A DNA stretch of 64,000 bases from Escherichia coli (GTDB taxonomy: Bacteria > Pseudomonadota > Gammaproteobacteria > Enterobacterales > Enterobacteriaceae): the NCBI RefSeq assembly GCF_024700885.2, contig NZ_CP117016.1; one strand, 5' to 3'. Position 1 is the first letter of the stretch. Each line of letters opens with the position of its first letter. The notes beneath the pieces are model-generated. The model searched no databases, was not told the origin of the DNA, and saw only the letters and a program-made list of their open reading frames with translations. The position numbers and the translations under genes were made by a program. Below, one piece after another: positions 39,079 to 50,526 of the stretch.

Positions 39079-40059
39079 CTAACGTCCTGCTTTTAACAAT
39101 AACCAGATAAACACCGGCGCACCCAACGTTGCGGTGACCACGCCAATAGGCAGCTCTGCGGCAGCTAATGCCAGGCGCGCTACAACATCAGCCAGCAGCA
39201 ATGCGCTCGCCCCTGCCAGCGCGCAGCCGGGAAGTAATACGCGATGATCGGTTAAACCACATAACCGGAGAATATGGGGGATCACCAGACCAATAAAGCC
39301 GATAGCACCCGCCAGCGCCACACTGACGCCAACCATCCAGCCGGTCGCTGCCACCAGCACATTGCGCCAGAACCACAGGGGTAAACCCAGTTGCCGCGCC
39401 GAGATCTCGCCAAGTGCTAACATATTCATCGATCTGGACTGACAACAGATCCACAACAACACGGGGATCAATGCCAGCATCAGCCAGCTTTGCCGCCAGT
39501 CTACGCCGCCAAAACCGCCCATCATCCAGTACATCAGCTGACGTAAATCAACAGAGGTGGAAAAGTAGATAGCCCACGTCATTAGTGCGCTACAGATAAT
39601 CCCTAATGCAACGCCAGCCAGCAATAACCGACTGGTCGAAAGATGACGACGGGCGAAACGTAAGAGTATTAAAGTGATGATAAGCGCGCCAGCAATCGCA
39701 CACAGCCCCAGCGCCCAGTTGGGGAGTTGCCCTTGCCCAAGCAATACCGCGGCGATAAGCCCCACGCCTGCGCCATTAGAGACGCCAAGTAGTCCAGGTT
39801 CTGCCAGAGGATTTTCAAATAACGCCTGCATTACAGCGCCGGATATAGCCAACGCCGCACCAACCAGCAATACAGCCAGCGTACGTGGCAGGCGAATTTG
39901 CCAGACGAACAGTTCGCCACGAGGAGTAAACCAGTCACCTGGCGAGATCCATTGTTCACCGGCGCAAAGGCTTAAGAGAAGCGCCAGCAGCATCAAAACT
40001 GACAGACATAATAACCAGCGAATATTTTGTCGCTGTTGTTGGCGGGCAAGTGTCAGCAT
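39079..40059 (-). CDS. btuC: vitamin B12 ABC transporter permease
   Basis: 326-aa multi-TM ORF, FecCD-family permease. Confidence 0.9.
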
Positions 40060-40267: not shown

Positions 40268-40708
40268 TTACTTAATAACAGTAACCACAGCCACAAGCAC
40301 GGCCATCGCAGACAGGACAATACCTGTGAGTAACCAAGTCTGATTTGCAAATGATTTCTGAAGTTCAGTACGATGCTCAGCCATCTCAACTTTCAGAGAC
40401 TGGCGTAAATCAGCCATCTCAGACTTCAGGGATTGGCGAGATTCTGCCATCTCAAGCCTCAACCCTTCGCGAATCTCCAGTACATCAGATTTGGTAGCAA
40501 AGGATTCGCTTCTTGTGGTGAGAGTAATCAGGTTGTTTTTGATTTCAGTCACATCACTTTCCAGGCAACTGACCCGCCGTTCAAGGTCGTCATTCATGCC
40601 ATCACCTCCATCATTACCACTTCCTGTTACTTGGTTGTTGGATACATTATAGGCATTCTCTTTCTTTTTTCTGAACCGCGAAATATGTGCAACATTCTCT
40701 GCCATCAC
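40268..40708 (-). CDS. hypothetical tail-anchored coiled-coil membrane protein (prophage cargo)
   Basis: 146 aa; three 11-residue repeats (EMAESRQSLKS / EMADLRQSLKV / EMAEHRTELQK) and a single C-terminal TM helix (WLLTGIVLSAMAVLVAVVTVIK); start overlaps the stop of the upstream gene (ATGA). No family recognised. Confidence 0.55.
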   Translation of the reverse strand: MMAENVAHISRFRKKKENAYNVSNNQVTGSGNDGGDGMNDDLERRVSCLESDVTEIKNNLITLTTRSESFATKSDVLEIREGLRLEMAESRQSLKSEMADLRQSLKVEMAEHRTELQKSFANQTWLLTGIVLSAMAVLVAVVTVIK

Positions 40709-41067
40709 TTCTCATCACCCTGCTTGCCTACCCAGTTCATAAAGGCCCGGGCCGAGTAACGATGAACAAACCCACATCTGTTACAGGTAAGTCGGAATTC
40801 ATAGTTATGGATATTTTCCCGATCATGTCCCTCATATCCCGGATACCCAGTAAATGGACCGATGTAATCAAGCATAACAAAAGTGCCTAAATCACACTCC
40901 TCAGCAGTTTTCGGCTCAGGCCCCACCTCAACAATATTCGTCAAATACATGTACATATCCGTATCGCCACACGACAAACATTTTTCATTCGTAGACGACT
41001 CATTGAGAAAACGCGCAAAATTATCGAGCGTTGCCATTCTTTTAAGCTCATCTAAATGAAACTTCAC
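40705..41067 (-). CDS. hypothetical Cys-motif protein (possible zinc ribbon), prophage cargo
   Basis: 120 aa with CLSC and CNRC pairs; begins 3 nt after the integrase stop. No family recognised. Confidence 0.55.
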   Translation of the reverse strand: MKFHLDELKRMATLDNFARFLNESSTNEKCLSCGDTDMYMYLTNIVEVGPEPKTAEECDLGTFVMLDYIGPFTGYPGYEGHDRENIHNYEFRLTCNRCGFVHRYSARAFMNWVGKQGDEK

Positions 41068-41069
41068 TC

Positions 41070-42047
41070 TTAAGCACCTCCTAGTGGATTAAACCTCACC
41101 GCATCCTGCAGGTAATCCGGCGCAAGATGGGCATAAATCATCGTTGTCTGAATCTTTGCGTGCCCCAGAATTTTCTGGAGCGTGAGAATATTGCCACCGT
41201 TCATCATGAAATGACTGGCGAAGGTGTGGCGCAGCGCATGAACAGCCTGGCCGTCAGGAACATCAGGTGCGACCGTTTTGATGACATCGCGAACCAATGA
41301 ATAATCCAGCGTCGGAAACACCAGTTTCCCGCCCCGTTTTTTGATCTTTTCAAACAGGCTTTCAGAAATAGGAACGGTACGGTTTTTGCTGTTCTTCGTT
41401 TTTGAAAAAGTGATTCGACAATGAAGAACACGGCGCTGCTCCAGTACCGCTACCTCGCCCCATCGCGCCCCGGTCGACAGAAGGATTTCGACAGCCAGCC
41501 GTTCATCGGGATTTTCAGCCAGTGCATCCAGCAACTGAACACATTCAGACTTACTCAGATATCCCATTTCGCGCTCGTTAACCTTCATTCCTTTAAGGCC
41601 TTGAACGGGGTTATCGTTAAGAAAATGGCCGGATGAGATGAGTGCGGTAAACATCGCGCTTAACGCCCCAATCTCTCGATTTATGGTGCTGGGCTGTATC
41701 CCCTGCTCTATCCTGGACACACGTAGCTCGGTGAGCATCGTTGTATTAAGTCTATGCACGCACGGGTCATCCATTGCCTCACTCAAGCGCAGCAATTTAA
41801 GGCGCGTGTTATGCCCTGACTTCATTAGCTGGCCGTGGTATTTCCACCACAAGTCAATAAGCACTGACAGAGGACGGCGATCAATAGAGTTTCCTTTCCA
41901 CTCATTGTTATGCTGTTGCGCCAGCACCCACCGCTCATATAAAACTGCATCCGATTTCGTTTTAAATTTTTTGCGAATGCGTTTGCCTTTACGCCCCTCA
42001 GGGCGCATGTCAAGAAGATACCCTCCCGGAATTGATTTTATGCTCAT
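41070..42047 (-). CDS. int: P2-type tyrosine integrase
   Basis: From MSIKSIPGGY, about 45-50% identical by eye to recalled P2 Int (RPTGRNGKRIRRKF..., LSTGARWGEA, HALRH.F, LGH...TM.YAH). ORF-track start trimmed by 50 codons. Confidence 0.85.
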   Translation of the reverse strand: MSIKSIPGGYLLDMRPEGRKGKRIRKKFKTKSDAVLYERWVLAQQHNNEWKGNSIDRRPLSVLIDLWWKYHGQLMKSGHNTRLKLLRLSEAMDDPCVHRLNTTMLTELRVSRIEQGIQPSTINREIGALSAMFTALISSGHFLNDNPVQGLKGMKVNEREMGYLSKSECVQLLDALAENPDERLAVEILLSTGARWGEVAVLEQRRVLHCRITFSKTKNSKNRTVPISESLFEKIKKRGGKLVFPTLDYSLVRDVIKTVAPDVPDGQAVHALRHTFASHFMMNGGNILTLQKILGHAKIQTTMIYAHLAPDYLQDAVRFNPLGGA

Positions 42048-44400: not shown

Positions 44401-44790
44401 ATGATTGACGCTCATGACTTCACAAGATGGGTGCGCACACAGGACACCCGTCTGGCTCCCATTCTTCGGGGATTATTTGATCTCTACATTCGTGGTCGTG
44501 ACAACAGAGCACGCACCACAAAACCGGAGAATGTGGATACCCTTTATTTCACAGTAGACGACTGCTACCGCGTGGACTTCACACCACACGGACTGGCGTT
44601 GCACTGCCTGACACCGCACGGCGAATCACTGCTGGCGTATTACGACTCCCCGGCCTCCGTATTTGCGGCAATGCTGGCGCATCGCACTGCTGGCGGGTGT
44701 GCCTCGCTGAGTGAATACACCGCTGAGTTTAACCGCCTTTCCGCCCTCTTCTCGCAGGAGTGGCAGCGCGTGACGGGATACCAGCCATGA
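44401..44790 (+). CDS. hypothetical phage early protein (P2 B-gene position)
   Basis: 129-aa ORF immediately upstream of and overlapping the A gene start. Confidence 0.5.
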   Translation: MIDAHDFTRWVRTQDTRLAPILRGLFDLYIRGRDNRARTTKPENVDTLYFTVDDCYRVDFTPHGLALHCLTPHGESLLAYYDSPASVFAAMLAHRTAGGCASLSEYTAEFNRLSALFSQEWQRVTGYQP

Positions 44791-47627
44791 GTGAGTTTGC
44801 ATGGAGCTGGAATGAACCACGGCCAGCCATTGATCCGGCCAGATTTACGGAGCGCAGGCAGGAAACTGAAACCGACCTGCAACGCGCCATCCGTTACTAC
44901 CTTGAGGCAGACAAAAAGGCCCAAGAAGAACAGGAAGCGAAAGAGGAAGCCTTTTTCGCACAATCCGCCATGGGTAAAAAACTCATGGCATCCCTTGAGG
45001 AAGCCGGACAGCGTGAAAAGCTGGCACAAAGCATCATCAGTAAGCGCCGGGCAACAGAACAAGACCCGGTGGCCCGTGCCTTTGCCACACTGAAGGTGCT
45101 TCCCGTTTATCTGCGAGAACCCCTGAGCCGCCACCTCTCTTTCCTGCGCAAAAAACAGGAAGCCGATCGCCGGAAAGGCAAAAAGAGCTGGCAGGCGGAA
45201 CGCTATGCACGCGGAACCCTGCGCAAAATATTCGAACGTCTGGATCGCACTGACGGACGCTGGCTGACACAGGGTTATCGCTCCATTGCCGGACGCGAAC
45301 GCCTGGACGATTTGCTTTACCTGCCGCAGCTCAACAAACACCAGGTACAGACACTGGCCACCATGACGGCAGCAATGTTCAGTAGCACATTCGAAAAACT
45401 CTGCGATGGCTTTGGCGCGACCGATGGTGAGCTGACCATGGATGTAACGCTGAAGGCGTATCAGATGCTGGCCCGCATGGCGTTACATCTGCACGCCATG
45501 CCTCCACATTATGACGCACTGACAACAGATAGAGATCGGAGGAACGAACCGGACACAGAGCTGCTGCCAGGCGCAATCCTTCGCCTGACCTGTGCTGAAT
45601 GGTGGAAACGCAAACTGTGGCTATTACGTTGCGAGTGGAGAGAAGAACAACTCCGCGCCGCCTGTCTGGTTTCCAGAAAAACATCGCCCTATCTGAGCCA
45701 GGACGCGTTAAGCGAGTTTCGCGCACAGCGCGAGAAAACACGCGATTTCCTGAAAGGTTTCATGCTGGAAAACGAAGACGGGTTCACGATTGATCTCGAG
45801 ACAGTGTATTACGCGGGAGTAAGTAACCCGGTTCACCGTAAGGCAGAAATGATGGCCACCATGAAGGGGCTGGAACTTCTGGCCGAGGCCCGTGGTGACA
45901 AAGCGGTGTTTCTGACTGTCACCTGCCCGTCAAAATACCACGCCACAACAGAGAACGGTCATCCGAATCCCAAATGGAACGGGGCCACCATGCGCGACTC
46001 CAGCGATTACCTGGTTAACACGTTTTTTGCGGCGGTCCGCAAAAAACTGAACCGCGACGGTCTGCGCTGGTATGGCATCCGCACGGTGGAGCCTCACCAT
46101 GACGGCACCGTGCACTGGCATATGATGGTCTTTGCTCATCCGGAAGAAATCGACAGCATCGTGGCCATCACCCGCGATATTGCCATTCAGGAAGACCGCC
46201 ACGAGCTGGGCAATGATATTACTCCGCGCTTTAAGGTGGAGTATGTCGACGGCTCAAAAGGCACACCAACCAGCTATATCGCGACCTACATCGGAAAAAA
46301 CCTGGACAGCCGCGCCGTGGATGGCATCGACCCGAAAACGGGCAAACCACGCGTTGACCACGAAACAGGTAAATCAATGGCCGAGAGCGTGGAGCGCGCC
46401 ATCGGCTGGGCGCGCCTTCACCGGGTCCGCCAGTTCCAGTTCTTTGGCATCCCCTCCCGTCAGGTGTGGCGTGAACTGCGCCGCCTTGCCAGCCAGATGG
46501 CACGCAACCCGGAAGGCCCGCAACGGCTGAAGGATGACGCAATGGATGCGGTACTCGCTGCCGCTGATGCCGGGTGTTTTGCCTCCTACATTGAAAAACA
46601 GGGTGGCGTACTTGTTCCACGCAAGGACTACCTGATTCGCACCGCCTACGACCTCGCAGATGAGCTGAACGATTACGGCGAACAGAGCGTACAGATTTAC
46701 GGGATCTGGTCACCACTCATCGGGGAATCCTCCCGTGTGTGCACGCACCCGGATAACTGGAAGCTGGTAAGACGTAAACCGGAAGCGGAAGACAGCACCC
46801 GCGAAAATGATTTTGACCTTCAGGGCGGCCCTGCCGCCCCTTGGACTCGTGGCAATAACTGTCCCCGTGTACAGGAAACAGACAACAACGGGACAGAACA
46901 GCCGGAAGAACGGCCAGCACCGTGGCCGCAGCTCCCTGACGGCGTTGAAGTGAACGAATGGATGCATTCACTGAAACGGCACGAACGCCGGGCGCTGATG
47001 CGTTCGCTTCGTGACAAACAGGCAAAAAACAGCAGCGATGAAATGCAGAACTGGACACAGAGCCGCAAACAGCCACAGCCTTTACCTGATAACCACGAGT
47101 TACTCGCTAAAGAATGGCGGGAGTCTGCTGAATCTCTCGGCCTGCATATTGGTGAACAGCAGATGCAGCACCTGTTACGGGGCGGCAGTCTGTACGTTGA
47201 CGGCAGCATCATTGCACCGCAGGGATTTGAAATTGTACGCAAACCGGATACCCGCCCGGACAGCCGAATCACGCAGCTCTGGCAACGCCTGAGCCGTAAT
47301 CACGGCGTAAGCAGCACGGAGATCCGCCATAACCCGGTCGCCAGCTATCTGGAACAGCTGGGGGCATCAGACCCTGAAGCCGCCGCACGCCTGGCATCCA
47401 CACTTCAGCAAGACCAGAACACCATGAAAACCCCCGTTACCGTGCTTTCTGACATGCTGCGCGCCATCCGTGACGCAGAGCACGCACAGAGAATCAGTGA
47501 AACCACTGAACGCGCCCACCGCAAAGCAGACCTGCTGCGGGGTAGCCTGACCAGTGGAAACAAAAAACAGACAGAAACGGGACTCACAAATCCCGTAAAT
47601 GAGCAAAAAACGTGCCGCGATATATGA
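44787..47627 (+). CDS. P2 gpA-type rolling-circle replication initiator with long C-terminal extension
   Basis: 946 aa from MSEFAWSWNEP; HUH-type motif VHWHMMVFAH and downstream Tyr-containing region (YIATYIGKN) typical of P2/186 A proteins; last 200 aa or so is low-complexity. Confidence 0.8.
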   Translation: MSEFAWSWNEPRPAIDPARFTERRQETETDLQRAIRYYLEADKKAQEEQEAKEEAFFAQSAMGKKLMASLEEAGQREKLAQSIISKRRATEQDPVARAFATLKVLPVYLREPLSRHLSFLRKKQEADRRKGKKSWQAERYARGTLRKIFERLDRTDGRWLTQGYRSIAGRERLDDLLYLPQLNKHQVQTLATMTAAMFSSTFEKLCDGFGATDGELTMDVTLKAYQMLARMALHLHAMPPHYDALTTDRDRRNEPDTELLPGAILRLTCAEWWKRKLWLLRCEWREEQLRAACLVSRKTSPYLSQDALSEFRAQREKTRDFLKGFMLENEDGFTIDLETVYYAGVSNPVHRKAEMMATMKGLELLAEARGDKAVFLTVTCPSKYHATTENGHPNPKWNGATMRDSSDYLVNTFFAAVRKKLNRDGLRWYGIRTVEPHHDGTVHWHMMVFAHPEEIDSIVAITRDIAIQEDRHELGNDITPRFKVEYVDGSKGTPTSYIATYIGKNLDSRAVDGIDPKTGKPRVDHETGKSMAESVERAIGWARLHRVRQFQFFGIPSRQVWRELRRLASQMARNPEGPQRLKDDAMDAVLAAADAGCFASYIEKQGGVLVPRKDYLIRTAYDLADELNDYGEQSVQIYGIWSPLIGESSRVCTHPDNWKLVRRKPEAEDSTRENDFDLQGGPAAPWTRGNNCPRVQETDNNGTEQPEERPAPWPQLPDGVEVNEWMHSLKRHERRALMRSLRDKQAKNSSDEMQNWTQSRKQPQPLPDNHELLAKEWRESAESLGLHIGEQQMQHLLRGGSLYVDGSIIAPQGFEIVRKPDTRPDSRITQLWQRLSRNHGVSSTEIRHNPVASYLEQLGASDPEAAARLASTLQQDQNTMKTPVTVLSDMLRAIRDAEHAQRISETTERAHRKADLLRGSLTSGNKKQTETGLTNPVNEQKTCRDI

Positions 47628-47703
47628 AGCACGCACAAAACAGGCAAAAGAGGGATTTCAGAATCCCGTAAACGGTTAATTAATCAACATAAGGAAAATC
47701 GAC

Positions 47704-48663
47704 ATGAAAATTTGTATCGACGACGGCTCCACCAACATCAAGCTGGCATGGACTGAGAACGGCGAACGCCGCAACGCCATCAGCCCGAACAGCTTCAAGT
47801 CGGAATGGTCTGCGCCGTTCGGTGGCACGCAGCCCGCGAACTACATGCTTGATGGCGTGCGCTATGGTTTTGATCCGGTCAGCGATCGCTTTATCCAGAC
47901 GACCGACACACAATACCAGTACAGCGATGTGAATGTCATTGCCATTCATCACGCGCTGGTCAAATCAGGCATCACGCCACAGGAGGTGGATGTGGTTGTC
48001 ACCCTGCCACTGAGCGAGTATTTCGACACAAACGCACAGCCGGACATGGCCAACATCAACCGCAAAAAAGCAAACGTTATGCGCCCGGTGGAATACCAGA
48101 ACGGCGAAGCATTCACTATCCGTAATGTACGGGTTATGCCTGAATCCATTCCGGCTGGCTTTAAAGCACTGGCTGACATGAGTCCGTTTGAATCCCTGCT
48201 GATTGTGGATTTAGGTGGAACCACGCTGGATGTGGCAAAGGTTCAGGGACAACTGGCAGGTATCAGCCAGGTGTTTTGCGATCCACACGTAGGCGTTTCC
48301 CTGATGGCCGATGCAGTACTGTCGGTGATGGCCACTAACGGTATGCGTACCAGTCACCACATCGCCAATACCATTATCGAACATCGCCATGATGAAGCCT
48401 GGCTGCGCCAGCACATCCACAATGACGCGCATTACGCCAGCCTGATGGCGGTTATTCGTGAAAAGGAAGAAACACTGAAACAACGCGTGATCCGCGCGCT
48501 GGCGGGTTTTTCGGGTTACGGGCGGGTGATGGTTGTCGGTGGCGGGGCGGAGATTGTGGCACCCGCTATCCGCGAAGCCTGCGGAGTTAATGCGACTTTC
48601 ATCGCGGACGGGGTGCCACAGTTTGCTCTGGTTAATGGGCTGTACGCAATGGACAAGGAGTAA
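47704..48663 (+). CDS. ParM/StbA-like actin-type ATPase
   Basis: 319 aa; actin-fold motifs IDDGSTNIKL (phosphate 1), DLGGTTLDV (phosphate 2), VVGGGAE (adenosine); collinear over full length with recalled plasmid R1 ParM (MLVFIDDGSTNIKLQW…YSDVNVVAVHHALL…VMPESIPAGY…DLGGTTLD…GGGAEL). Confidence 0.8.
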   Translation: MKICIDDGSTNIKLAWTENGERRNAISPNSFKSEWSAPFGGTQPANYMLDGVRYGFDPVSDRFIQTTDTQYQYSDVNVIAIHHALVKSGITPQEVDVVVTLPLSEYFDTNAQPDMANINRKKANVMRPVEYQNGEAFTIRNVRVMPESIPAGFKALADMSPFESLLIVDLGGTTLDVAKVQGQLAGISQVFCDPHVGVSLMADAVLSVMATNGMRTSHHIANTIIEHRHDEAWLRQHIHNDAHYASLMAVIREKEETLKQRVIRALAGFSGYGRVMVVGGGAEIVAPAIREACGVNATFIADGVPQFALVNGLYAMDKE

Positions 48664-48667
48664 ACCA

Positions 48668-48979
48668 ATGACGACACCAACCAGGCGGATAAGTTTCTAT
48701 CTGAAGCCTGCGGCCGTCAAGAACGAAAGCGAAGCATGCGCCTGGCTGGACAGCCTTACACCGGAAGCCCGCAAAAGCGGCCAACGCGTGGCTTTTCTGG
48801 CCGGGCTGGCACTTCTGAAAATGAATCCGGCAGAGGCTTACCGACTGGCTGCATGGGCTGACGATGAGGCGTTATCAGTGACACAAACCAGGACAGAACG
48901 CCCCCTGTCACAGCCAGTACCAACCGCACAGATAACCAGTCAGATGGCCGGAAATATCAGGGCGTTATTTCCTGAATAA
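48668..48979 (+). CDS. ParR-like DNA-binding adaptor
   Basis: 103 aa from MTTPTRRISFYLKPAA...; N-terminus resembles recalled R1 ParR (RRTIAFKLNPDV…LDSIP.GERS…AALTAGLALY); starts 5 nt after the parM-like stop. Confidence 0.65.
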   Translation: MTTPTRRISFYLKPAAVKNESEACAWLDSLTPEARKSGQRVAFLAGLALLKMNPAEAYRLAAWADDEALSVTQTRTERPLSQPVPTAQITSQMAGNIRALFPE

Positions 48980-48986
48980 CACAACG

Positions 48987-49006
48987 TCAGGGCGAGTTCG
49001 CCCTGA
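48987..49006 (+). terminator. hairpin TCAGGGCGA-GT-TCGCCCTGA after the parR-like gene
   Basis: Perfect 9-bp inverted repeat; no strong T-run, so terminator function is tentative. Confidence 0.35.
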
Positions 49007-49042
49007 TCTCCATCTCAGAACATAAACAAGAAGAGCGACTTA

Positions 49043-49426
49043 ATGAGCAAAATCAACTATCAGGCATTACGTGAACGTTATTCACCTGCACCAGTACCAA
49101 AATGCCCTATTTGCTGCGAAGAAATGTCAATTCAGCGAATATCTGGAGCACAGGTTGTTTATGGCTGCTCCGGTTATGGTGATGATGGAGATTTCAAAAT
49201 TGGTCGAACTCTTGCCGACGAACATTATGAAAAATCACGCGTAACAGTGTTGGATGTCGGGGATCCTGAAGTATTGGCGCTACTTGATTGGCTGGAAACC
49301 AAAGACAACCGAATCGCTGAACTGGAAAAAATCGCCACTGACTATGCACTTAAATTCCAGAAAGCACAGGACGCATTAAAGTACGCCGCTTTGCTGCATA
49401 GCAGGTCAGCGCAGCTACAAGACTAA
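49043..49426 (+). CDS. hypothetical protein with N-terminal Cys motif (CPICC...GCSGYG) and C-terminal coiled coil
   Basis: 127-aa ORF; lower GC than the phage backbone by eye; no family recognised. Confidence 0.5.
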   Translation: MSKINYQALRERYSPAPVPKCPICCEEMSIQRISGAQVVYGCSGYGDDGDFKIGRTLADEHYEKSRVTVLDVGDPEVLALLDWLETKDNRIAELEKIATDYALKFQKAQDALKYAALLHSRSAQLQD

Positions 49427-49454
49427 CTTAAAGCGGAAGATTAATACATGGTGA

Positions 49455-49481
49455 GTCGGGGTAATTTGTTTTTATCCCGAC
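49455..49481. terminator. bidirectional terminator hairpin between convergent island genes
   Basis: GTCGGG...CCCGAC stem with a T-rich loop and flank, between the plus-strand 127-aa gene and the minus-strand membrane gene. Confidence 0.45.
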
Positions 49482-49516
49482 AAATAAACAAAAAAGTGGA
49501 CTATCTCTGTAGTATC

Positions 49517-50047
49517 TTATTCAGCATCGTCTCGTGCAGTCTGTGCATACGTCACAACAACGCCCAATGCATTAGTTTTCTTTTCAACATAGATAATATT
49601 GTCATATTCATAGTTACCATACGGATAGCAAATAAGAATATTTTTATGCAGATCGGGATCATCAACAAACGCTCCGGAACAGCTTCTTGAACTACCGGAT
49701 GTATACTCATACGGTGCAACATATGATGATGTTACTCCTGGTAAAAAATAAGTCACCATCATAAGAGGGATAATCAGGAATATCCCTGTAAGAATGCAAG
49801 AGCCAGCATAAACCTTCAGGTATTCCGACAGTCCTTTCCAGCCACTTTGCTTCACTACCCCCCTCTTCACCAGAAACAAGGAGAAGAAAAAGGACATACC
49901 CATACTACATAAGATGTAATAATTGGATATACGCGAATTAAGATATGTAATCCTGTAGATATCTGCCCTCCACCAGTAAAAGAGGAAAATAATCCCTAGC
50001 ACTGAAACAGTCATGCAAATCAAATAAGGATATGAATCTTTCTTCAT
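49517..50047 (-). CDS. hypothetical low-GC integral membrane protein (moron-like)
   Basis: 176 aa; three predicted TM segments (YLICMTVSVLGIIFLFYWW, YYILCSMGMSFFFSLFLV, CILTGIFLIIPLMMVTYFL) then a roughly 70-aa soluble C-terminal domain; markedly AT-rich compared with flanking phage DNA (by eye). Confidence 0.6.
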   Translation of the reverse strand: MKKDSYPYLICMTVSVLGIIFLFYWWRADIYRITYLNSRISNYYILCSMGMSFFFSLFLVKRGVVKQSGWKGLSEYLKVYAGSCILTGIFLIIPLMMVTYFLPGVTSSYVAPYEYTSGSSRSCSGAFVDDPDLHKNILICYPYGNYEYDNIIYVEKKTNALGVVVTYAQTARDDAE

Positions 50048-50250: not shown

Positions 50251-50526
50251 GTGACGGGGGAACAGCCCGCGTTTCAGGGGGTAAATAGTATTCCCTGAGC
50301 GATGTCGCAGCGACATAACAGAATGGCCATATTTCTCACGCTGAGCGTGAAAAAGATGTGAGGGCTTTTGATTTGATGGGGTGAAAGGTAAGGCCGTCAA
50401 AATCGAACTGAGGCGGTGAGAACATGCAGTCAGCGCGGTGGGATTGCGTAAGAGTCTGACCGTCGATGATGGTAATAAACAGGAAAGCGTCGTGAAATTA
50501 TCTGATTGATACAGGAGCTGGAGAGT

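What the first reader, a model, noticed from the sequence alone, without database searches (positions are those of the whole stretch)
47704..48979. Plasmid-type ParM/ParR actin partition pair inside an integrated P2-like prophage
The 319-aa protein has the actin-fold ATPase motifs and reads as a full-length homologue of plasmid R1 ParM. The next gene resembles ParR at its N-terminus. P2-like phages lysogenise by integration and do not need a segrosome, and the integrase here looks intact. Either the element can also persist as an episome, or the actin-like filament system has been co-opted for another role such as exclusion or phage DNA positioning.
Basis: partly seen in the sequence, partly recalled or inferred. 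Interest (0 to 1): 0.8.

Follow-up and report, generated by a model that had tools for sequence, protein, structure and literature searches.

The report
ParMRC partition cassette in P2-like prophage
An integrated P2-like (P88-type) prophage of E. coli carries a real, selectively maintained copy of the actin-like ParM/ParR plasmid-segregation system next to its replication gene; this is common, already annotated and already noted in the literature, but nobody has tested what it does for a phage that integrates.

Summary
Window 47704-48663 encodes a full-length ParM: both Pfam ParM domains match, it is 46% identical to plasmid R1 ParM, and all catalytic residues are kept. Window 48668-48979 encodes a 103-aa ParR/StbB-family adaptor with a ribbon-helix-helix N-domain and a conserved C-terminal tail motif.

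The host element is a P88-type (Xuanwuvirus) P2-like prophage inserted between btuC and ihfA, with an intact integrase.

The feature is not new:
- Identical genes are annotated in RefSeq and in phage P88.
- The cassette occurs in 1307 of 5426 complete E. coli genomes.
- Rousset et al. 2022 noted that about a quarter of P2-like phages carry a putative partitioning system.

What I add:
- parMR is fixed directly behind replication gene A in several deeply diverged P2-like lineages.
- It is under strong purifying selection (parM dN/dS 0.02-0.12).
- Two unique 16-bp palindromes, 72-73 bp apart, precede it in three of four diverged lineages. I read these as a minimal parC.
- 1453 of 1455 copies are chromosomal, so plasmid-type lysogeny is at most rare.

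Most likely the cassette moves or separates free circular phage genomes after infection or induction, as AlpAC does for prophage CGP3. That function is inferred, not shown.

The parts
47561..47599 (+). Candidate parC arm 1: a 39-nt direct-repeat unit holding the 16-bp palindrome GGGACTCACAAATCCC (47579-47594). It lies inside the 3' end of gene A.
   Evidence: Direct repeat D1 and inverted repeat I1. Conserved in all P88-type loci and in Hafnia. An equivalent site sits at -131 in Plesiomonas and at -128 in a second Hafnia lineage. ParR binding is inferred, not shown.
47634..47672 (+). Candidate parC arm 2: the second 39-nt repeat unit with the perfect palindrome GGGATTTCAGAATCCC (47652-47667), 73 bp from arm 1 and 52 bp before the parM ATG.
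   Evidence: In two whole phage genomes these are the only two matches to the GGGWHH-N4-DDWCCC pattern.
47704..48663 (+). parM: 319-aa actin-fold ATPase of the R1 ParM/StbA family.
   Evidence: Pfam StbA_N 3.3e-82 and ParM C-terminal domain 2e-68. PDB 1mwk E 1.2e-92. Residues equivalent to R1 D6-T10, K13, E148, D170-T175 and D177 are all conserved. dN/dS is 0.02-0.12.
48668..48979 (+). parR: 103-aa adaptor with three segments: a ribbon-helix-helix N-domain (about residues 1-62), a hypervariable linker (about 63-88), and a conserved C-terminal motif ..NIRALFPE.
48987..49006 (.). G+C-rich 8-bp-stem hairpin just after the parR stop. It marks the end of the conserved A-parM-parR block and the start of the variable cargo region. 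It is terminator-like on the minus strand.
   Evidence: Inverted repeat I15 and terminator-like scan hit. Similarity to most related phages ends at about 48980-49030.
44787..47627 (+). Context: gene A, the rolling-circle replication endonuclease, immediately upstream in the same orientation. Only 76 nt separate it from parM, with no plus-strand terminator-like site in between.
   Evidence: RefSeq annotation. PHROG 91 'nicking at origin of replication'. tblastn gives 31% identity to P2 A. Terminator scan.

Best explanation
This is a genuine type II (ParMRC) DNA-segregation cassette that has become a fixed module of a group of P2-like phages, here a P88-type Xuanwuvirus prophage.

Shown by sequence:
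- ParM is an intact actin-like ATPase.
- ParR is a ribbon-helix-helix adaptor with a conserved C-terminal tail motif.
- Two unique 16-bp palindromes (GGGAYT-N4-AAWCCC), 73 bp apart, sit at -125 and -52 from the parM start.
- Both genes are under purifying selection.
- The cassette always directly follows replication gene A or its neighbours.

Inferred mechanism:
1. ParR dimers bind the two palindromes, which act as a minimal split parC and probably also as an operator.
2. The ParR tail captures growing ParM filaments.
3. The genes are read through from the early replication operon, so they are made when the phage genome is a free, replicating circle. That is after infection, or after derepression and excision.
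4. ParM filaments then push ParR-marked phage circles apart or position them. This could improve replication and packaging, as AlpAC does for prophage CGP3. It could also ensure that both daughter cells keep a copy until integration or lysis.

The cassette is not needed for inheritance of the integrated prophage, and plasmid-type lysogeny is at most a rare side state.
For: Identity of the parts.

Selection:
- parM dN/dS is 0.02-0.12, including 0.04 against a Hafnia copy with dS 0.66.
- parR dN/dS is 0.18-0.37.

Fixed module rather than shuffled cargo:
- All 14 phage records whose A protein is at least 80% identical also hold parM at 96-100% identity.
- Similarity to relatives breaks only after parR.
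- The same order (A ... parM, parR, variable cargo, portal) occurs in P2-like prophages of Plesiomonas, Serratia, Enterobacter and Hafnia. Their A proteins are only 32-61% identical and their portals 29-98% identical, yet ParM stays 54-94% identical.
- These prophage ParMs group together apart from the plasmid-type ParMs in a neighbour-joining tree. More than 4990 plasmid records hold ParMs below 60% identity (at most 52% among those listed).

Cis element:
- Two palindromes 72-73 bp apart lie at -125/-52, -131/-59 and -128/-55 in three lineages whose flanks do not align.
- They are the only such sites in whole phage genomes.
- In Hafnia the repeat units are more conserved (77-82%) than the flanks (50-59%).
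- The AAWCCC half-site resembles the AAACCC core of the R1-type parC iterons printed.

Timing:
- 76 nt separate A and parM, with no plus-strand terminator-like site and no sigma-70 or Ogr-type promoter motif.

Lifestyle:
- 1453 of 1455 copies in complete E. coli genomes are chromosomal.
- The integrase is intact and the element is integrated between btuC and ihfA.

Precedent:
- Integrated prophage CGP3 encodes the actin-like AlpC and the adaptor AlpA. AlpA binds upstream of its own operon. Both are induced early and are needed for efficient replication of the excised circle (PMC4446434).
Against: - No experiment on this cassette was found.
- Expression timing rests only on gene order and simple motif scans. 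A weak ParR-controlled promoter between the palindromes cannot be excluded.
- Two binding sites are far fewer than the 10 iterons of R1 parC.
- The Xuanwuvirus ParR lacks the helical cap present in pB171/R1 ParR. A classical ParR ring may therefore not form.
- The Serratia and Enterobacter lineages have a different upstream repeat layout.
- ParR-DNA binding, ParR-ParM binding and filament formation are all untested.
- P2-type phages without parMR replicate well, so the benefit may be small or conditional.
Confidence: 0.5

Rival explanations
1. Facultative plasmid prophage. The cassette lets the phage persist as a low-copy extrachromosomal element when integration fails or the attachment site is occupied. 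This is the suggestion made in passing by Rousset et al. 2022.
For: - The cassette has all the parts of a plasmid stabiliser.
- One PLSDB record, NZ_CP148288.1, is a 34,461-bp circular 'plasmid' that is an entire P88-like phage including its integrase.
- Two copies in complete E. coli genomes lie on non-chromosomal replicons.
- Phage-plasmid D6 uses a ParM at 48% identity.
Against: - 1453 of 1455 copies are chromosomal.
- The integrase is intact.
- The only replication gene found is the A-type rolling-circle endonuclease, with no extra Pfam domain or plasmid-type replicon seen. By analogy with P2 it should be repressed in lysogens (inference), so a repressed episome would not replicate.
- A circular contig can also come from spontaneous excision in the sequenced culture.
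Confidence: 0.2
2. Lysogen-expressed accessory function. The ParMR pair is a moron of the gpA-gpQ hotspot. It would act against other elements, for example by excluding or destabilising plasmids or phages that share its centromere, or as an unrecognised defence system.
For: - The cassette lies between gpA and gpQ, the interval Rousset et al. define as a hotspot rich in defence systems.
- Neighbouring cargo in other loci includes HicAB and a KAP NTPase.
- parR alleles are strongly diverged while parM is nearly invariant.
Against: - No PADLOC family matches ParM, ParR or the neighbouring ORFs.
- The cassette does not shuffle like cargo. It is fixed next to A, and variation starts only after parR.
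- The ParR DNA-reading strand and the palindromes are conserved across ParR alleles, so the alleles do not look like incompatibility groups.
- No own promoter was detected.
Confidence: 0.1
3. Helper of the rolling-circle initiator. ParM and ParR act mainly through protein contacts with the neighbouring A endonuclease, stimulating nicking or organising the replication complex, rather than by moving DNA.
For: - Physical linkage to gene A is tight and conserved across lineages; in the Enterobacter and second Hafnia loci one or two small ORFs lie between A and parM.
- In plasmid R1, ParM and ParR bind and stimulate the HUH relaxase TraI, and TraI stimulates the ParM ATPase (PMC4949242).
Against: - The associated A proteins are very diverse (32-61% identical) while ParM stays conserved. 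That is not what tight co-evolution of partners predicts.
- In the Enterobacter and Hafnia L018 loci other genes separate A from parM, and the palindromes stay with parM.
- No interaction data exist.
Confidence: 0.1
4. Decaying relic of a past phage-plasmid recombination, with no current function.
For: The cassette is of plasmid type and sits in an element that integrates.
Against: - parM dN/dS is 0.02-0.12 with dS up to 0.66.
- 1277 of 1307 genomes keep at least 80% of the cassette.
- Catalytic residues are invariant.
- The position is conserved across genera.
Confidence: 0.02

Closest known systems
ParMRC (parA/stb) type II partition locus of plasmids R1/NR1
   Same: - ParM is 46% identical and full length, with all nucleotide-binding and catalytic residues.
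- ParR belongs to the same Pfam family with a homologous N-domain and C-terminal motif.
- Gene order is cis site, parM, parR.
- The cis site is split into two arms upstream of parM, with an AAWCCC core like the R1-type iterons.
   Different: - It sits in an integrating phage, not a plasmid.
- It has only two palindromic sites instead of 2 x 5 direct 11-bp iterons.
- No recognisable promoter lies between the arms.
- ParR is shorter (103 vs 117 aa) and lacks the helix that aligns with R1 residues about 70-84.
- It follows a rolling-circle replication gene in an early phage operon.
ParR of plasmid pB171 (PDB 2JD3)
   Different: About 21% identity. The phage protein goes from helix 3 into a variable, probably disordered linker instead of the further cap helices described for ParR (PMC5016525).
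AlpA/AlpC/alpS of Corynebacterium glutamicum prophage CGP3
   Same: - An integrated prophage encodes an actin-like ATPase plus a co-transcribed DNA-binding adaptor.
- The adaptor's sites lie upstream of the operon.
- The genes are induced early and act on the excised circular phage DNA to give efficient replication (PMC4446434; PMC5539076).
- This is the working model adopted here.
   Different: - Different host phylum and phage type.
- I did not test sequence homology between AlpC/AlpA and these proteins.
- Gene order is adaptor-motor in CGP3 as the operon name suggests, and motor-adaptor here.
- The role of the E. coli cassette is untested.
Partition cassettes of phage-plasmids (for example the StbA-type ParM of Escherichia phage D6)
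   Same: A phage carrying an R1-family ParM, 48% identical.
   Different: D6 is a 91-kb P1-like element annotated with a plasmid stability protein and, from general knowledge, maintained as a plasmid. The element here is a 34-kb P2-like phage with an integrase, and it is found integrated in 1453 of 1455 cases.

Membership tests
Type II (ParMRC) partition system | Actin-fold ATPase of the ParM/StbA family | tested here: met
   Pfam StbA_N 3.3e-82 and ParM C-terminal domain 2e-68. R1 ParM 1mwk E 1.2e-92, end to end.
Type II (ParMRC) partition system | Intact nucleotide-binding and hydrolysis residues (R1 D6-T10, K13, E148, D170-T175, D177) | tested here: met
   All are identical in the window protein and in all 17 prophage-clade sequences.
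Type II (ParMRC) partition system | ParM polymerises into dynamic filaments | not testable with these tools
   Only indirect evidence. R1 K33, W36 and F40 are conserved and R34 is not. That these residues lie in the filament interface is my recollection of Gayathri et al. 2012, which I did not check.
Type II (ParMRC) partition system | Adaptor ParR encoded directly downstream, with an N-terminal ribbon-helix-helix DNA-binding domain | tested here: met
Type II (ParMRC) partition system | Conserved C-terminal ParR tail that binds ParM | tested here: inconclusive
   The motif N-[IA]-x-x-[LFM]-F-P is conserved at the extreme C-terminus across prophage ParR alleles that otherwise differ by about 45-70%. 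It aligns with the R1 ParR C-terminus ..KKNAMKLIN through intermediates. Binding itself was not tested. The role of the tail in R1 is taken from the review PMC5016525.
Type II (ParMRC) partition system | Centromere parC: an array of ParR-binding repeats upstream of parM | tested here: inconclusive
   Two conserved, unique palindromes lie 72-73 bp apart upstream of parM in three lineages. There are only two sites, a different layout in Serratia and Enterobacter, and no binding data.
Type II (ParMRC) partition system | Carried by, and stabilising, a low-copy plasmid | tested here: not met
   The cassette is integrated between btuC and ihfA. 1453 of 1455 copies in complete E. coli genomes are chromosomal. 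So it is a homologous cassette in a different kind of replicon.
Phage-plasmid (extrachromosomal prophage) | Prophage maintained as an autonomous replicon with a plasmid-type replication module | tested here: not met
   Chromosomal location. Integrase present. The only replication gene is the A-type endonuclease. One circular 34.4-kb record exists.
CGP3 AlpAC-type prophage actin system | Prophage-encoded actin-like protein plus adaptor, acting on excised phage DNA and required for efficient replication | not tested
   The architecture is analogous. Homology to AlpC/AlpA and the functional requirement were not examined.
Known anti-phage defence systems (PADLOC) | Match to a defence-system protein model | tested here: not met
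   No PADLOC hit for ParM, ParR or the two downstream ORFs at E up to 0.1.

The most novel reading that the evidence does not exclude
The cassette is a phage cytoskeleton that works only while the P2-like genome is a free circle. ParR on a minimal two-site centromere, together with ParM filaments, separates or positions the rolling-circle replication products. It might do this in concert with the neighbouring A endonuclease, as R1 ParMR does with the relaxase TraI. The outcome would be a larger burst or a higher lysogenisation frequency. Because the cassette sits in about a quarter of complete E. coli genomes, it would be the most widespread phage-encoded actin system in enterobacteria, and an E. 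coli counterpart of CGP3 AlpAC.
Probability: 0.45. Interest if true: 0.6.

Novelty: already known. Interest (0 to 1): 0.38.

Why it matters
ParMRC is the textbook actin-like plasmid spindle. Here it sits, under strong selection, in an integrating phage family present in roughly a quarter of complete E. coli genomes, including EPEC E2348/69, O157:H7, O104:H4 and ST131 strains.

The only published comment found is a guess that it permits plasmid maintenance. The census argues against that as the main role.

If the cassette instead organises free phage DNA during replication or before integration, it would extend the one studied case of a prophage actin system (CGP3) to the best genetic model organism, where P88 and PhiSM are inducible and tractable.

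It would also offer a natural minimal centromere (two sites) and a truncated ParR for mechanistic work.

For annotation, these genes should not be read as evidence of a plasmid or of misassembly.

Tried and rejected
- NCBIfam gave only sub-threshold hits (PRTRC_D 5.5e-5, ParM PRK13917 5.8e-4, both far below cut-off), so Pfam and PDB were used instead.
- PADLOC found nothing.
- phmmer of ParR alone against PDB found nothing useful. The family profile was needed.
- The first ParR alignment (A1) placed the C-terminal motif against an internal R1 helix. Adding intermediate prophage ParRs (A3) moved it to the R1 C-terminus, and I adopt that placement.
- The genome-contig scan with ParM returned only three near-identical loci. 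Diversity came from look-ups of individual proteins.
- I considered the palindromes as minus-strand terminators, because they were flagged. I rejected this because arm complementarity is not conserved (3-4 of 6 in Plesiomonas), while GGG-N10-CCC and the 72-73 bp spacing are.
- I looked for a sigma-70 promoter between the palindromes and for an Ogr-type TGT-N12-ACA motif. Neither was found.
- The Shigella boydii 26.7-kb 'plasmid' hit is a linear, IS1-ridden prophage fragment and is not evidence of an episome.
- Literature searches for experimental work on P88-type ParMR found none. A supplement search of an EHEC transcriptome paper found nothing. The paper on genome-encoded ParMs does not mention phages.
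- Rfam and tRNA scans of 40-52 kb and 38-52 kb respectively found nothing.
Full report

Yes, and the coordinates are exact.
- The plus-strand ATG ORF 47704-48663 encodes 319 aa.
- It matches both Pfam ParM domains over its whole length: StbA_N on residues 1-157 (E 3.3e-82) and PF21523 on residues 159-316 (E 2e-68).
- It aligns end to end with the crystal-structure sequence of plasmid R1 ParM (1mwk, E 1.2e-92). Global identity is 46% (147 of 318).
- Residues equivalent to R1 D6-T10, K13, E148, D170-T175 and D177 are all identical.
- The next-best PDB hit is DnaK at E 0.48. The protein is therefore not some other ASKHA member.
- Four nucleotides after its stop, an ATG at 48668 opens a 103-aa ORF ending at 48979. 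This ORF matches Pfam PF10784 (Plasmid_stab_B, the StbB/ParR family) over residues 6-76 (E 2.2e-24).
- PHROGs files both proteins under 'partition protein' families (phrog_691 at 3.2e-90 and phrog_2515 at 4e-58).

**2. Is ParR a ribbon-helix-helix adaptor?**

The evidence supports this.
- A profile of 19 ParR relatives hits the solved pB171 ParR (2JD3) at E 2.7e-7 over residues 4-75.
- A monomer AlphaFold model was poor (pLDDT 58), as expected for an obligate dimer.
- Two N-domains joined by a flexible linker gave a confident model (pLDDT 82.6, pTM 0.77). Each half has strand 6-12 and helices 18-29, 32-52 and 54-61.

Across prophage ParR alleles the protein has three parts:
- a conserved N-domain;
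- a hypervariable linker of about 25 residues;
- an invariant-type C-terminal motif, N-I-(R/Q)-x-(L/F)-F-P.

When longer ParRs from other P2-like prophages are added, this motif aligns with the extreme C-terminus of R1 ParR (..KKNAMKLIN). According to the review PMC5016525, that tail binds a hydrophobic pocket of ParM.

**3. What is the host element?**

The gene order and sequence are those of Escherichia phage P88 (Peduoviridae, Xuanwuvirus), gp16-gp18: replication endonuclease, ParM, partition protein.

The window matches the chromosome of E. coli E-1246 over the whole region:
- the 1420-bp cassette query is 100% identical;
- the annotated gene coordinates in the fetched locus coincide with the window ORFs at a constant offset.

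In that chromosome the prophage lies between btuC (window 39079-40059) and ihfA. It has a 325-aa integrase (41070-42047, minus strand) that is not flagged as defective. 'Integrated P2-like prophage with intact integrase' is therefore correct.

**4. How common and how known is it?**

- The cassette is present at 90-100% identity in 1307 of 5426 complete E. coli genomes. These include E2348/69, O157:H7, O104:H4, 55989 and ST131 strains.
- It is annotated there as 'plasmid segregation protein ParM' and 'plasmid partitioning/stability family protein'.
- Rousset et al. 2022 analysed the gpA-gpQ interval of P2-like phages. [quoted passage not shown]
- A study of Citrobacter rodentium prophages merely lists the PhiSM gene as a 'fitness' factor.
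- I found no experimental work on the cassette.

The presence is therefore known. The function is open.

**5. Cargo or core?**

The cassette behaves as a core module, not as shuffled cargo.
- All 14 phage records whose A protein is at least 80% identical to the one here also carry parM at 96-100% identity. No other phage record does, except the phage-plasmid D6 at 48%.
- Similarity between relatives ends just after parR, at a G+C-rich hairpin (48987-49006). Variable genes begin beyond it.
- The order 'A ... parM, parR, variable genes, portal, terminase' recurs in P2-like prophages of Hafnia, Plesiomonas, Serratia and Enterobacter.
- Against the window, those loci have A proteins only 32-61% identical and portals 29-98% identical, yet ParM remains 54-94% identical.
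- In a neighbour-joining tree of 108 ParMs, the prophage-context proteins and the window form one group of 17, apart from the plasmid-type ParMs (no support values).
- More than 4990 plasmid records hold ParMs below 60% identity (at most 52% among those listed). The six records at 95% or more include three oversized 'plasmid' records of 0.23-0.54 Mb and one of 1.4 Mb, a 272-kb Salmonella plasmid, and one whole-phage circle.

**6. Selection**

- parM has dN/dS of 0.02-0.12. Against the Hafnia copy the value is 0.04, with dS 0.66.
- parR has dN/dS of 0.18-0.37.
- ParM is 95-100% identical among copies whose ParR is only 53-100% identical.
- In many genomes nucleotide similarity breaks inside parR.
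- The parR alleles are old: dS is 1.4-1.5, against 0.07-0.14 for the adjacent parM.
- Those alleles keep the DNA-reading strand and the tail motif.

This is a working gene pair, not a relic.

**7. A candidate centromere**

Upstream of parM lie two 39-nt direct repeats (47561-47599 and 47634-47672, 73 bp apart). Each contains a 16-bp palindrome: GGGACTCACAAATCCC and GGGATTTCAGAATCCC. The first overlaps the 3' end of gene A.

Conservation:
- Both are conserved in every P88-type locus and in Hafnia. In Hafnia the repeat units are 77-82% identical, against 50-59% for the flanks.
- The same layout occurs in lineages whose flanks cannot be aligned: two GGGWHH-N4-DDWCCC sites at -131/-59 in Plesiomonas and at -128/-55 in a second Hafnia lineage. 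The window has them at -125/-52, and the spacing is always 72-73 bp.
- In the second Hafnia lineage another ORF, not gene A, lies upstream. The sites therefore travel with parM.
- In two whole phage genomes they are the only matches to the pattern.

Why they are not terminators:
- Arm complementarity is not conserved (3-4 of 6 in Plesiomonas).
- The GGG-N10-CCC frame is conserved.
- That pattern fits a dimeric protein site rather than an RNA hairpin.

Comparison with R1:
- The half-site AAWCCC resembles the AAACCC core repeated in the R1-type parC printed.
- The split, two-arm layout recalls R1 parC.

Differences from the plasmid paradigm:
- There are only two sites.
- The Serratia and Enterobacter loci instead have a long inverted repeat.
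- ParR binding is an inference.

**8. When is it expressed?**

- 76 nt separate the A stop from the parM start.
- There is no plus-strand terminator-like site there, no sigma-70-like promoter and no Ogr-type TGT-N12-ACA motif. The same holds in the other lineages.
- parR is translationally close-coupled to parM.
- The simplest reading is read-through from the early replication operon. That means expression when the genome is derepressed and extrachromosomal.
- This reading is inferred. By analogy with P2, that operon is repressed in lysogens (general knowledge of P2).

**9. Episome or not?**

- 1453 of 1455 copies in complete E. coli genomes are on chromosomes.
- One PLSDB record (NZ_CP148288.1, 34,461 bp, circular) is an entire P88-like phage with its integrase. 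Free circles therefore do get assembled, but this could reflect spontaneous excision.
- A Shigella 'plasmid' hit is a linear IS-ridden prophage fragment.
- The only replication gene is the A-type rolling-circle endonuclease.

Stable plasmid lysogeny is therefore at most rare.

**10. Most likely mechanism**

ParR dimers mark the free circular phage genome at the two-site parC. ParM filaments captured by the ParR tails then separate or position these circles. This would happen during early replication or before integration.

The closest functional precedent is prophage CGP3 of Corynebacterium glutamicum. Its actin-like AlpC and adaptor AlpA have these properties:
- AlpA binds upstream of its own operon.
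- Both are induced early.
- They link circular phage DNA to filaments.
- They are needed for efficient replication.

A variant idea is cooperation with the neighbouring A endonuclease, since R1 ParM and ParR stimulate the relaxase TraI. The diversity of the associated A proteins speaks against tight partnership.

No known defence family matches.

**11. Verdict**

Its sense of novelty is not: the cassette is common, annotated, and already remarked on in print. What remains interesting is an untested function. The conserved position, strong selection, minimal two-site cis element and overwhelmingly chromosomal location make that function a well-posed experimental question.

Noticed in passing
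window 40268-41067 (-): Two ORFs of unknown function (145 aa, PHROG 9415; 119 aa, PHROG 4293) lie between the prophage left end (next to btuC) and the integrase. This is a second cargo position. There was no significant PADLOC hit (LmuB-like at E 0.0075 only).
   Followed up: partly
window 49043-50047: The variable cargo between parR and the portal gene holds a 127-aa Ead/Ea22-like fragment (49043-49426, +) and a 176-aa membrane ORF (49517-50047, -; PHROG 1416). RefSeq marks the latter as frameshifted. Other loci carry HicAB, a KAP NTPase, DUF4760 or an HTH-M78 pair at this position.
   Followed up: partly
window 48722-48979 (inside parR): In many E. coli genomes, nucleotide similarity to this cassette stops inside parR at about 48722 or 48813. 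ParR alleles are 53-56% identical, next to ParM at 98-99%. parR dS is 1.4-1.5, against 0.07-0.14 for parM. The left edge of the variable region therefore seems to lie within the ParR linker.
   Followed up: partly
window 50279-50295: GGGTAAATAGTATTCCC recurs at the equivalent place upstream of the portal gene in L001, L006, L010 and L014. It may be part of the conserved cos-proximal region. It is not one of the parM-linked sites, because its spacer is different.
   Followed up: no
L002 (NZ_CP148288.1, whole record): A 34,461-bp circular 'plasmid' of a cat E. coli isolate is a complete P88-like phage genome with integrase, Cox, A, parMR and all structural genes. I could not check whether the same strain also has an integrated copy.
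   Followed up: partly
L007 (JAIJJM010000298.1): A 3.7-kb contig with this E. coli-type parM (98% identical) is binned in a Collinsella MAG. This is most likely a binning error.
   Followed up: no
window 44787-47627: The A protein is 946 aa, and tblastn aligns P2 A only to its residues ~100-759. The last ~190 residues are an extra, Q/E/R-rich tail with no additional Pfam domain on record in related loci. The first parC palindrome lies in the coding sequence of this tail, while in Hafnia the A gene stops inside that palindrome.
   Followed up: partly
L020 3272-5398 (E-1246 chromosome, beyond the window): Near the right end of the same prophage, the gpD-like gene is short (262 aa, annotated as VgrG/Pvc8 family) and is followed by a 384-aa hypothetical gene on the other strand and a pseudogene fragment. 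This particular prophage may not be fully intact.
   Followed up: no
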